From Escherichia coli (GTDB taxonomy: Bacteria; Pseudomonadota; Gammaproteobacteria; Enterobacterales; Enterobacteriaceae), in NCBI RefSeq assembly GCF_029227855.1, contig NZ_CP074356.1: 64,000 nt of DNA. One strand, given 5' to 3'. Within the stretch, counting starts at the first letter, position 1. Each line of letters begins with the position of its first letter. Below, in pieces: positions 18,706 through 21,700 of the stretch. Made by a program: the position numbers.

Positions 18706-21700
18706 TGATGAGGGACGTATTTGTATTAGTCGCGACTTGATCTGACACATGGCCTTGAAAGGTTGAGAGTTACCGGTTTTGATATGAGTGTCGAATCCTT
18801 ATCCAAAACAAGAGGTAACTCTCATGCTTCATACTGCCAATCCCGTCATCAAACACAAAGCCGGTTTGCTCAATCTGGCTGAAGAACTCAGCAACGTATC
18901 AAAAGCCTGTAAAATCATGGGCGTTTCGCGTGAAACGTTTTATCGTTACCGCGAACTGGCCGCTGAAGGCGGTGTGGATGCGCAGATTAATCGTAGTCGC
19001 CGCGCTCCTAACCTTAAGAACCGTACCGATGAGGCAACTGAACAGGCTGTTGTTGATTACACCGTCGCTTTCCCGACACATGGTCAGCACCGGGCCAGCA
19101 ACGAGCTGCGTAAACAGGGGGTTTTTATCTCCGACAGTGGTGTCCGTTCTGTCTGGTTACTCCATAACCTTGAGAATCTCAAAAGACGATACTGAACAAA
19201 TTTTATCAGGTGACGTTCCGTAAAAAGTTGTATGGAGTTCTCGATGCAGTCGGCGCGACTATCAGTACCCCCGCTGAACCCTGGACTATCGGGCCGCCGT
19301 ACTGGAGCATGTCACCCTGGCGTGCCGCTGGTTTTCCGCTAATGGTTTATTTCCTCTTTCTTTCCCGGCGAGAATTTATTTTAATCCGGAAGGATTATTT
19401 ATTTTCAGATAGGGACTCACATTAAACACGAAACATTTTAATTAATGCATGGCTGAATATGTATTACACAATGTCAGATATCGTAAAAGACCAGTGCAAT
19501 TCTATGTAAACTCTCTGACTGTTCATTTTATTTGTTGTTTCAGGGTCGGAACTCACCCTCAATAAACAACTGAATACGAGTAGATATTCATCGTCTGAGC
19601 TATATGGCTTTACACAATAGCCGACATGTCTTTTCTCAGTCAGGGATTTTACTTTTCCTCACTACGAAGTTGACGACTTCGATATGGGATAGACTCTTAA
19701 TTCAAGCAATTACTCTGCACAAGCATCAGGCAATCCAGCTCCAATATTTGTTATAAAATAATGCGTAACATTAATTTCACCAACAAAAAAAAGGTTTACG
19801 CTATCCCCTTGCCCTGGTATTTTACCATATTTACACCACACTTTTTTTGTATCTGGATCATTCTCTGATACGATTTTCGCCACTTGTTCCCTGGCCCTCA
19901 CCGTCAATGTTTTCTTAAACCTCCCCCCATCATCGATTGTTAGGGAAAAATAAGAAAAAAAATAATCACCTTCTACATTTGTGGATATTGATATATCCAC
20001 CGCTACATGCGGAAAAAAATCTGGGAGCCATGTAAAAACCCCATCACTTTCTGGTATTGCCATATAGTTTATGTAATGCTTACTTACAAGAGATTCATCT
20101 TTGTGTAAATAAAGATAAGTAGTCACGCATAAAAAAACAACGATTATAATAGCAAAAATAAATATTACCATCTTTGAGATGTTACTTGAGATAGCCAGCA
20201 TCTTGTAAAGCCTTTATCGTTTTTTTATGCTCTGGATTAATATAATCAATACATCTATTTGAGCAATCTTGTGTTAATGGACATGTCAACCCATGTTCAT
20301 TTACAGCCAAGTCTTTTTTATTATCTTCAATCATCTCAGAATGGGATAACTTTACTTTTCTGCCGTACATACCGAACATATTTAACCCGTAATCTCTAAT
20401 CTCTTTTTCATAACCCAGCCCTTTCGCTGATCGGCTAACACCAGCGTCATTTAATTTAGACACTCGACAAAATGCCATACAATGGAAAAATTGATCAGTC
20501 CCACCTAAATTTAATCTCTTCATATCATCATAAGTATCAGATAATATATCCCATGCTCTTTGATGGTTTAGTTGTTCTTTTTTTCGCATTAACGCTACAT
20601 CTGCAGGACTTAACCCTAATGGATCAATACCATTCACCGGATTCAGCGGATACGCATACAGACTCCATCCCCCCGCCAGCCCAATCGGGTCCTGAGCAAT
20701 ATATCGTCCCAGCAACGGATTGTAGTACCGGTTCCGGTTATAATACAGCCCTGACTCCTCATCGTGTTGCTGCCCTGGCAGACGGTACGGCTGGTGCAGG
20801 TGATGCGGGTTTTCCTCATTCAGCAGGTTTCCCCACTCATCATACTCCCCGCTCCACGCCGTATTGCCGTCTTCGCTGATGAGCGCCAGCGGCAGCCCCC
20901 GGTGGTCACAGTGATAAAGATGAATTTTTCGCTCAGGTAAATAAACCGGCTCTATCTGTGCCGCCAGCCGCTCCACCGTCAGCCCGCACTGTGCCAGCCA
21001 CTGGCGGCTTTCACTGCTCACGCGGTCTGCCCGGATTTCCCCCTCCAGCCTGTCCAGCAGCCGCACCAGTTCAGCCGGGAACACCACGCCGTGTCCGTCC
21101 TCGCTCCCTTCCTGCTGGAGCTTCTCCGCCAGGCTGCGGCGCTGCGCTTTCTCCCGCTCGCCGTTCTCTGTCTCGACCCGGATGAGCGGCGTGAAGCTTC
21201 CCGGCTGGTACACCGTCTGGATACGCGTGGTGTCGGTCTGTACTGTCGCCAGCCTGTCGCCGTCCCACCCGTACCACGTTACCTCCGGTTTACGCGACAG
21301 CGACATCCACCCCGTCAGGTCACGCTCCCGCCGCCATACCCGTTTCGCCATTCGCCATCCCAGCGGGTCGTAGAGGTAGCGGCTCTCGACCAGTGGCTCG
21401 CCATGCTGTATCCGCGTGTAGAACACCAGGCGGTGCTGGCTGTCGTAGTGGTAGTGGTGGGTCCGCTCGTCGTCCGTCCGTATCACACCCGCCGGGATGC
21501 GGTCCGTCTTCTCTGTCAGCCTGCCGTATTCATCGTGGCGGTAGACATAGTGCGCATCCTCCGCGATGCGGTTATCCGGCCACGCCGTGAGTGTACTGTC
21601 CGGGTGCAGCTCCGGGTCCGGCAGCCGGTTGCCCGCCGGGTCCGTGGCATACGGGATGCGGATGTCCAGGTCCGGTGCGAGGGTGCGTACACTCGCCAGC

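What the first reader, a model, noticed from the sequence alone, without database searches (positions are those of the whole stretch)
18788..19350. Rhs 5'-end remnant abutting a truncated transposase gene
A ~95-nt fragment matching the first 30 codons of rhs (start codon changed to ATT) lies downstream of the intact rhs gene, next to a transposase gene fragment. This is a scar of past rearrangement or IS-mediated deletion at the Rhs locus; an N-terminal rather than C-terminal orphan fragment is unusual.
Basis: seen in the sequence. Interest (0 to 1): 0.4.

Follow-up and report, generated by a model that had tools for sequence, protein, structure and literature searches.

The report
Known Rhs/IS481 pseudogene scar (ylbI–ylbG)
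The first 32 codons of a lost second rhs toxin gene sit fused to the broken interior of an IS481-family insertion sequence just downstream of selU; this dead scar is already annotated in E. coli K-12 as the pseudogene ylbI and the gene ylbG, and about half of all E. coli carry it.

Summary
Window 19249-19343 (- strand) matches the first 32 codons of the intact rhs gene (20182-24393, -) at 77-78% nucleotide identity. ATT replaces ATG. The fragment abuts a truncated transposase gene (18824-19195, +).

It is not new. The region is 99% identical and collinear with E. coli K-12 ylbI (b4632, pseudogene) and ylbG (b0502). PGAP marks both as partial pseudogenes in the source strain, and about 2,720-2,750 of 5,426 complete E. 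coli genomes carry the region.

What the tools added:
- The transposase remnant is an IS481-family element. Its left inverted repeat starts 12 nt after the selU stop codon and forms the edge of the RhsD island.
- The element has a 467-bp internal deletion and is cut at IS nt 1000 of 1203, where it joins rhs codon 32 directly. Both breakpoints lie inside the IS, so this was illegitimate recombination, not a transposase-made adjacent deletion.
- 17 of the 22 differences from the neighbouring rhs fall at third codon positions. The fragment therefore comes from a distinct, once-functional rhs lineage. The closest intact match is a vgrG-linked rhs of Pseudocitrobacter faecalis (88.5-89.6%).
- No intermediate state or intact parent was found.

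Verdict: ordinary and already known. Interest is low.

The parts
17614..18708 (+). selU/mnmH (tRNA 2-selenouridine synthase), the chromosomal flank of the island
   Evidence: ORF list; PGAP and K-12 annotation of the identical region
18721..18747 (+). Left terminal inverted repeat (27 nt, TTGTATTAGTCGCGACTTGATCTGACA) of an IS481-family element. It is the selU-side boundary of the RhsD island, 12 nt after the selU stop codon.
   Evidence: IR pair in an intact copy on plasmid NZ_OY856300.1. The window matches that copy from its first base. Full-length copies in 73 genomes begin at window 18717-18721. Homology to empty-site genomes ends at 18715-18720.
18721..19184 (+). IS481-family element, nt 1-464 (left end, 5' UTR and codons 1-~120 of the transposase)
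   Evidence: 85.6% identity to the intact IS in L005 and 94.7% to a pseudogenised IS481-family copy (frameshifted, internal stop) in L004
18824..19195 (+). ylbG ORF (123 aa): the HTH N-terminal domain of the IS481-family transposase, ended by a frameshift stop just after the internal deletion
   Evidence: Pfam HTH_29 E = 3.6e-19, no rve domain. Same position as K-12 ylbG b0502. PGAP calls it a pseudogene missing its C-terminus.
19180..19185 (+). Junction 1: a 467-bp internal deletion of the IS (nt 465-931) at a 3-4 nt AAG microhomology. It shifts the frame and gives TGA at 19193-19195.
   Evidence: Overlapping BLAST pieces and side-by-side junction sequences
19180..19248 (+). IS481-family element, nt 932-1000 (transposase nt ~829-897): a second, discontinuous piece in the same orientation
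   Evidence: 94.2% identity to L005; first seen as hit H70
19248..19249 (.). Junction 2: IS nt 1000 joined directly to rhs codon 32, with no detectable microhomology. The last 203 bp of the IS, including the right inverted repeat, are absent.
   Evidence: Junction sequences compared with the intact IS and with rhs. No other IS piece is present in the window.
19249..19343 (-). rhs 5' remnant = ylbI: codons 1-32 of a PAAR-type Rhs N-terminus, with ATT in place of ATG
   Evidence: K-12 pseudogene ylbI b4632 maps to window 19248-19343. PGAP partial pseudogene. PAAR_motif match is weak, E = 8e-4.
19344..19391 (-). About 48 nt of fragment-specific upstream sequence with a Shine-Dalgarno-like AGAGGA (19357-19352). 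It is unrelated to the leader of the neighbouring rhs.
   Evidence: Only 9 of 27 upstream nt are identical to the local rhs leader. Homology to the RhsE-locus spacer stops at about 19391.
19392..19574 (-). AT-rich Rhs-element spacer, 85% identical to the spacer that precedes the ISEc1/H-rpt element at the RhsE locus of strain 142
   Evidence: Hit H59; alignment A1
19646..19676 (-). TCGTCA-19-TAAAAT, the sequence listed for K-12 as an in vitro RpoD 'constitutive promoter' between ybbD and ylbI
   Evidence: Exact match in the window; table entry in PMC3946193
19710..20201 (-). 163-aa YbbD-family ORF, presumed immunity partner of the rhs C-terminal domain (context only)
   Evidence: Same coordinates as the annotated 'YbbD family protein' in JNEC-KY175 and 153/163 aa identical to it. 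No Pfam hit.
20182..24393 (-). Intact rhs gene (1403 aa): an rhsD-type core joined to a ylbH-type C-terminal domain (context only)
   Evidence: Pfam RHS_repeat x13, DUF6531, RHS; alignment with K-12; PGAP 'RHS element core protein'

Best explanation
This is a non-functional deletion scar, the E. coli K-12 pseudogene pair ylbI/ylbG. The accessory RhsD island between ybbP and selU once carried a second, full-length PAAR-type rhs gene. That gene lay downstream of the present rhs-ybbD module, in the same orientation, and belonged to a different rhs lineage. An IS481-family insertion sequence landed 12 nt downstream of the selU stop codon. One illegitimate (non-homologous) deletion then joined IS nt 1000 to codon 32 of the second rhs gene. 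It removed the last 203 bp of the IS, codons 33 to the end of the rhs gene (about 4 kb) and anything between them. A separate 467-bp deletion inside the IS, at an AAG microhomology, removed the catalytic domain and left a 123-aa HTH-only ORF (ylbG). The rhs remnant then decayed: ATG became ATT, and codon 13 is Pro or Leu depending on the strain. The scar became fixed in the ancestor of the lineages that carry this island. Shown directly: the identities, the coordinates, both junctions, the codon-position pattern, the island boundary and the population frequency. Inferred: the order of events, the assumption that the second rhs sat at this locus rather than the junction being imported ready-made, and the lack of function.
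For: Orthology: 99.07% ungapped identity over 751 nt with K-12, where the same bases are annotated as ylbI (pseudogene) and ylbG. PGAP flags both as partial in the 100%-identical strain CFSAN018748. IS anatomy: intact 1203-bp reference with 27-nt inverted repeats and a 346-aa HTH_29 + rve transposase. The window holds IS nt 1-464 and 932-1000 only. Island boundary: genomes with an empty or differently filled ybbP-selU site share sequence only up to 18715-18720. Distinct lineage: 22 of 96 differences from the local rhs, 17 at third positions, and 14 of the 18 differing codons synonymous. The upstream leader is unrelated. Identity is 82-83% to the best E. coli rhs found (ATCC 8739) and 88.5-89.6% to a vgrG-linked rhs of Pseudocitrobacter faecalis. 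A simple deletion fits the geometry, because the IS reads rightward and the rhs remnant leftward, so they converge. Decay: ATT in all 4 loci checked, and codon 13 is CTC here but CCC in K-12 and two others. The region is present in about 2,720-2,750 of 5,426 complete genomes at >=99% identity.
Against: No genome was found with the presumed ancestral state. None of 5,426 E. coli genomes has an intact IS next to selU or an rhs gene with a near-identical 5' end. GTDB species representatives, one metagenome pattern scan and plasmids gave none either. The tandem second rhs at this site is therefore inferred, not observed. Only about 48 nt of fragment-specific upstream sequence precede the remnant before generic Rhs spacer begins, so the 5' side may also be a recombination joint. 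The junction could have formed in a donor genome and arrived with the island. K-12 annotation treats ylbG as a putative regulator rather than a pseudogene. An in vitro RpoD promoter and an FNR ChIP target are listed at ylbI, so transcription of the region is not excluded.
Confidence: 0.85

Rival explanations
1. The fragment is a partial duplication of the 5' end of the neighbouring intact rhs gene, and the copy then decayed neutrally.
For: It matches the first 32 codons of the adjacent gene in direct orientation, 5 kb away.
Against: Neutral decay would spread changes evenly over codon positions. Here 17 of 22 fall at third positions and 14 of 18 altered codons are synonymous. The leader upstream of the start codon is unrelated, with 9 of 27 nt identical. 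The fragment is closer to rhs genes elsewhere (82-83% to ATCC 8739, 88.5-89.6% to P. faecalis) than to its neighbour at 77-78%. The flanking DNA is 99% identical among strains, so 22% neutral divergence in situ is not plausible.
Confidence: 0.03
2. This is a transposase-catalysed IS adjacent deletion, or a direct insertion of the IS into the rhs gene at codon 32.
For: An IS remnant lies directly against the rhs breakpoint. IS elements are frequent at Rhs loci: IS3 and ISVsa5 in strain GF153, ISEc1/H-rpt at RhsE.
Against: Both mechanisms place a terminal inverted repeat of the IS at the junction. Here the junction is at IS nt 1000, 203 bp short of the right end, inside the transposase reading frame. 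The right inverted repeat is absent from the window.
Confidence: 0.07
3. The remnant is retained because it does something. For example, YlbG could be a domesticated HTH regulator, or the ylbI leader and promoter could drive a small ATT-initiated peptide or an antisense transcript over ylbG.
For: The ylbG ORF is intact and K-12 annotates it as a putative DNA-binding regulator. It has a strong HTH_29 domain. An RBS-like AGAGGA precedes ATT. The in vitro RpoD promoter TCGTCA-19-TAAAAT is present upstream, and an FNR ChIP peak is labelled ylbI. The region occurs in about 2,700 genomes.
Against: The 99% conservation equals that of the surrounding spacer, so it reflects recent common descent, not selection. 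The ylbI remnant has a non-synonymous L/P polymorphism among only four loci. It keeps 32 residues of its PAAR-type domain and scores below the Pfam cutoff. It then reads through into antisense IS sequence to a stop after 45 codons. PGAP treats both as pseudogenes. The locus tolerates disruption: in GF153 an IS3 is inserted and the distal part is missing. Half of E. coli lack the whole island.
Confidence: 0.05

Closest known systems
E. coli K-12 ylbI (b4632, pseudogene) and ylbG (b0502), between ybbD and selU
   Same: Same locus, same coordinates relative to selU, and 99.07% identity over 751 nt without gaps. Both have the ATT start and the same junctions.
   Different: One substitution in ylbI (codon 13 is CTC/Leu here, CCC/Pro in K-12). 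Upstream, this strain lacks the K-12 rhsD-CT/ybbC module and has the ylbH-type C-terminal domain fused to the main rhs.
Rhs C-terminal 'orphan' or displaced-tip modules, such as K-12 ylbH-ybbD (C-terminal displacement model, PMC2935791)
   Same: Both are partial rhs sequences lying downstream of a full-length rhs within an Rhs element, left behind by recombination.
   Different: Orphans keep the 3' end of the core, a toxin domain and an immunity gene, and they can be re-activated by recombination with the main gene. This remnant is the opposite end (PAAR-type codons 1-32). It has no toxin, no immunity gene and no homology long or close enough (95 nt at 78%) for efficient recombination. It arose by deletion, not displacement.
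IS481-family insertion sequences of E. coli (1203 bp, 27-nt inverted repeats, 346-aa HTH + rve transposase; intact copies in 73 of 5,426 genomes)
   Same: The left inverted repeat, the 5' UTR and the HTH-encoding first 464 nt, plus nt 932-1000, are collinear with intact copies at 85-95% identity.
   Different: It lacks nt 465-931 and 1001-1203, and therefore the DDE/rve catalytic core and the right inverted repeat. It cannot transpose on its own.

Membership tests
rhs gene (PAAR-type Rhs N-terminus) | Sequence homology to the 5' end or N-terminus of bona fide rhs genes | tested here: met
   95 nt at 78% identity, E = 1.7e-15 within the window. 28 of 32 residues are identical to the local Rhs. 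88.5% nt identity to a vgrG-linked rhs of P. faecalis.
rhs gene (PAAR-type Rhs N-terminus) | PAAR motif domain recognised by profile | tested here: inconclusive
   PF05488 E = 8e-4, 20 bits, below the 27-bit cutoff. Only profile positions 21-50 of 70 are covered because the fragment is truncated. The database copy of the 45-aa ORF carries a precomputed PF05488 hit.
rhs gene (PAAR-type Rhs N-terminus) | YD/RHS-repeat core, conserved core end and C-terminal toxin domain | tested here: not met
   Homology stops at codon 32 (19249). The next base is IS sequence. It is therefore a gene fragment, not a gene.
rhs gene (PAAR-type Rhs N-terminus) | Canonical start codon | tested here: not met
   ATT in the window and in all 4 related loci examined
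Rhs orphan (displaced C-terminal toxin/immunity module) | 3' core fragment plus variable C-terminal domain followed by an immunity gene | tested here: not met
   The fragment is the 5' end. No rhs core or toxin homology occurs elsewhere between 18721 and 19343, and no downstream ORF other than antisense IS sequence is present.
IS481 family insertion sequence | Terminal inverted repeats at both ends | tested here: not met
   IRL is present at 18721-18747. IRR is absent; the only match to the right IR is IRL itself, as its inverted-repeat partner.
IS481 family insertion sequence | Transposase with an N-terminal HTH and an rve (DDE) catalytic domain | tested here: not met
   The window ORF has HTH_29 only. 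The intact reference has HTH_29 plus rve/rve_3. The catalytic region falls in the 467-bp deletion and the 3' truncation.
IS481 family insertion sequence | Target-site duplication flanking the element | not testable with these tools
   The right end and its flank were deleted. The 5 nt before IRL (CGTAT) look chromosomal by comparison with the O145 allele.
K-12 ylbI/ylbG locus (orthology) | Same flanking genes, same junctions, near-identical sequence | tested here: met
   The order selU - ylbG - ylbI - spacer - ybbD - rhs - ybbP matches K-12, at 99.07% identity.

The most novel reading that the evidence does not exclude
The scar might not be inert. The HTH-only remnant of the IS481 transposase (YlbG) could be a domesticated DNA-binding protein. 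The surviving leader and promoter of the lost rhs gene (RpoD promoter 19646-19676, RBS, ATT) could drive convergent transcription into ylbG, forming a small regulatory unit at the edge of the RhsD island, for example one that modulates rhs/immunity expression or IS481 activity in trans. Nothing here tests this. The conservation seen is no higher than in the flanking neutral DNA.
Probability: 0.04. Interest if true: 0.35.

Novelty: already known. Interest (0 to 1): 0.1.

Why it matters
It matters little beyond annotation. The result documents, base by base, how one Rhs island lost a whole rhs gene. The loss was by non-homologous deletion against a resident IS, rather than by the C-terminal displacement that dominates the Rhs literature. 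It also shows that the selU-side edge of the RhsD island is an IS481 terminus. That detail is useful for curators, because ylbG is inconsistently called a regulator or a pseudogene, and for anyone using the ybbP-selU site as a marker of island turnover. It opens no new question.

Tried and rejected
- **Intact parent of the fragment.** A blastn search of 5,426 complete E. coli genomes gave at most ~81% identity to any rhs; direct comparison put the best intact E. coli 5' end, ATCC 8739, at 82-83%.
- **First degenerate-codon scan of GTDB species representatives.** It gave 0 hits. I had used the strain-specific Leu13 codon; K-12 and others have Pro.
- **Second scan of GTDB representatives.** It gave 2 hits: P. 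faecalis rhs (88.5%) and an E. coli contig mis-binned as Alistipes.
- **Metagenome scan** for the fragment's 3' end continuing into an rhs core: 0 hits.
- **Plasmid search**: only the same pseudogene, or matches at 81% or less.
It returned only short or partial Rhs N-termini and could not resolve lineage.
- **Intermediate state.** A synthetic query of the selU end joined to a full-length IS found 73 genomes with intact IS copies, none next to selU.
- **Second IS end or another rhs piece** that might indicate a composite transposon: none in the window.
- **Inverted repeats around the remnant**: only the IS 5'-UTR hairpin-like pair at 18759-18829, which is also present in the intact IS.
- **Rfam:** only a sub-threshold psRNA2 match on the IS left end.
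- **Consensus scans:** no sigma-70 promoter site, and one terminator-like site, as expected by chance.
- **Literature:** ylbI appears only as a table label. The C-terminal displacement paper does not discuss this remnant.

Full report
**1. Observation**

The window is Escherichia coli. Positions 18650-19750 are 100% identical to strain CFSAN018748.

The repeat finder pairs 19249-19343 with 24299-24393: 95 nt, ungapped, 78% identical. The second copy is the first 95 nt of a 1403-aa rhs gene on the - strand (20182-24393; Pfam RHS_repeat x13, DUF6531, RHS). BLAST of the whole rhs gene against the window finds only this extra match, E = 1.7e-15, so chance is excluded.

On the - strand the fragment reads ATT AGC GGA AAA CCA ..., giving [32 protein letters not shown]. 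The rhs gene gives [32 protein letters not shown]. An AGAGGA sits 8 nt before the ATT.

The adjacent + strand ORF (ATG 18824 to TGA 19195, 123 aa) has a strong HTH_29 domain and no rve domain. The fragment is 32 codons rather than 30.

**2. Already annotated**

K-12 MG1655 carries the same DNA at 99.07% identity over 751 nt without gaps. The rhs remnant maps exactly to pseudogene ylbI (b4632). The transposase ORF maps to ylbG (b0502, 'putative DNA-binding transcriptional regulator').

PGAP annotates both in CFSAN018748 as partial pseudogenes missing the C-terminus. The full region is present at >=99% identity in about 2,720-2,750 of 5,426 complete E. coli genomes.

**3. Anatomy of the transposase remnant**

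An intact relative lies on plasmid NZ_OY856300.1. It is 1203 bp with 27-nt terminal inverted repeats and a 346-aa HTH_29 + rve transposase annotated as IS481 family.

- Window 18721-19184 equals IS nt 1-464 (85.6% identity).
- Window 19180-19248 equals IS nt 932-1000 (94.2% identity), in the same orientation.

The 52 nt that seemed to separate the two features are thus more IS sequence.

Junction 1 (19180-19185) is a 467-bp internal deletion at an AAG microhomology. It shifts the frame and creates the ylbG stop codon.

Junction 2 lies between 19248 and 19249. IS nt 1000 meets rhs codon 32 with no microhomology. The last 203 bp of the IS, including the right inverted repeat, are missing.

Because this breakpoint is internal to the IS, neither a simple insertion into rhs nor a transposase-made adjacent deletion explains it. 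It is an illegitimate-recombination joint.

**4. The IS end is the island boundary**

The ybbP-selU interval varies among genomes:
- In strain O18 it is empty (about 58 bp).
- In O145 RM9872 it holds a dinQ-like toxin gene.
- In U12A it holds an Hcp-effector with DUF2931 genes.

All of these share sequence with the window only up to 18715-18720. The IS left inverted repeat starts at 18721, 12 nt after the selU stop codon. Full-length copies elsewhere in 73 genomes begin at exactly this base. None of the 5,426 genomes has an intact IS next to selU, so no intermediate state survives.

**5. Origin of the rhs remnant**

The remnant differs from the local rhs at 22 of 96 nt. Seventeen differences fall at third codon positions, and 14 of the 18 differing codons are synonymous. 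The 27 nt upstream of the start codon are unrelated, with 9 identical. This pattern is divergence under purifying selection. The remnant is therefore not a decayed duplicate of its neighbour but the 5' end of a different, once-functional rhs gene.

Identity to other rhs 5' ends:

| Comparison | Identity |
|---|---|
| Local rhs | 77-78% |
| ATCC 8739 rhs | 82-83% |
| T6SS-linked rhs of strain HS | 74-75% |
| Pseudocitrobacter faecalis rhs | 88.5-89.6% |

The P. faecalis gene sits directly behind a VgrG gene. No closer intact gene was found in E. coli genomes, GTDB representatives, one metagenome scan or plasmids.

Signs of decay after inactivation are the ATT in all four loci checked and a Leu/Pro polymorphism at codon 13.

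Only about 48 nt upstream of the ATT are specific to the fragment. From 19392 to 19574 the spacer is 85% identical to the spacer that precedes ISEc1/H-rpt at the RhsE locus of strain 142.

**6. Most likely history**

The island once carried two rhs genes in tandem, reading from ybbP toward selU. An IS481-family element inserted next to selU. A single non-homologous deletion from inside the IS to codon 32 of the distal rhs removed about 4 kb or more.

The geometry fits, because the IS reads rightward and the remnant leftward, so they converge. A second small deletion gutted the IS.

The order of events, and whether the joint formed here or in a donor before the island arrived, cannot be decided from the data. 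I put 0.85 on a non-functional scar of a distinct rhs gene truncated against an IS481 remnant, and about 0.6 on formation in situ.

**7. Function**

Nothing indicates function. Conservation equals that of the flanking spacer. The PAAR domain is cut to 32 residues and scores below the Pfam cutoff. The reading frame runs into antisense IS sequence and stops after 45 codons. Strain GF153 tolerates an IS3 insertion that removes the distal part.

For completeness, two K-12 studies touch this region. One lists an in vitro RpoD promoter, TCGTCA-19-TAAAAT, between ybbD and ylbI (PMC3946193); that sequence is present here at 19646-19676 on the - strand. The other labels an FNR ChIP target ylbI (PMC1802558). 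The AT-rich leader may therefore still bind RNA polymerase.

**8. Comparison and verdict**

The feature is a member of the K-12 ylbI/ylbG locus, since all orthology criteria are met. It is a fragment of an rhs gene and a fragment of an IS481-family element. It fails the defining features of a complete member of either family, and it is not an Rhs C-terminal orphan.

An N-terminal remnant is indeed atypical next to the C-terminal displacement model (PMC2935791). It is explained by an ordinary deletion and is already in the reference annotation.

Novelty: already known. Interest: 0.1.

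Noticed in passing
window 20182-24393 (-), recombination tract about 20639-20890: Relative to K-12, the main rhs gene here is the rhsD core joined to the ylbH-type C-terminal domain. Window 20639-24900 aligns to K-12 rhsD (93.9%) and 18600-20890 aligns to K-12 ylbH-ybbD-ylbI-ylbG (96.4%), with a 252-nt overlap. The K-12 rhsD-CT/ybbC module is therefore absent, and what is an orphan tip in K-12 is the expressed tip here. This looks like a natural case of orphan activation or loss by core-repeat recombination.
   Followed up: partly
window 19710-20201 (-): The 163-aa ORF downstream of rhs is an intact YbbD-family protein. It is 153/163 aa identical to the annotated protein of strain JNEC-KY175. 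ybbD is a pseudogene in K-12, and PGAP calls a frameshifted partial gene at 19947-20202 in the identical strain. It has no Pfam domain.
   Followed up: partly
ybbP-selU interval; loci L007, L008, L009 and L002 compared with window 18716-24815: This interval is an integration hotspot with at least four occupancy states. It is empty (58 bp) in strain O18, holds a dinQ-like type I toxin in O145 RM9872, and holds an extended Hcp (tssD, 2 kb) with three DUF2931 genes in U12A. Here and in K-12 it holds the RhsD island. In GF153 the island additionally carries IS3 and ISVsa5 insertions.
   Followed up: partly
window 18721-18821 (- strand; reported match 18650-18821): There is a sub-threshold Rfam match to psRNA2 (RF02349): 31 bits against a gathering score of 65, E about 1e-5. 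The confident part lies on the IS481 left end and 5' UTR, antisense to the transposase. The family may describe an IS481-end-derived RNA.
   Followed up: partly
window 19305-19307 (codon 13 of the rhs remnant): Codon 13 is CTC (Leu) in this strain but CCC (Pro) in K-12, JNEC-KY175 and a metagenomic contig. Intact rhs genes have ACC/ACT (Thr). This is a strain-specific substitution in the pseudogene.
   Followed up: yes
L013 (CASFSC010000074.1, 'uncultured Alistipes sp.' MAG), 2600-3000: A 3,995-bp contig of a GTDB species-representative Alistipes MAG carries the E. coli ylbI-ylbG scar almost base for base. This is most likely E. coli contamination or mis-binning of the MAG.
   Followed up: no
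NZ_CP028192.1 3701551-3702752 (same strain, outside the window): The source strain also carries a full-length IS481-family copy elsewhere on its chromosome, 90.8% identical to the synthetic full-length query. A transposase is therefore available in trans, although the remnant lacks a right end to act on.
   Followed up: no
window 18759-18774 / 18814-18829: A 16-nt inverted repeat (88% complementary, 39-nt loop) spans the IS481 5' UTR up to the transposase start codon. It is conserved in the intact plasmid copy (L005 2892-2962). It may be a translational control hairpin that sequesters the RBS and start codon.
   Followed up: no
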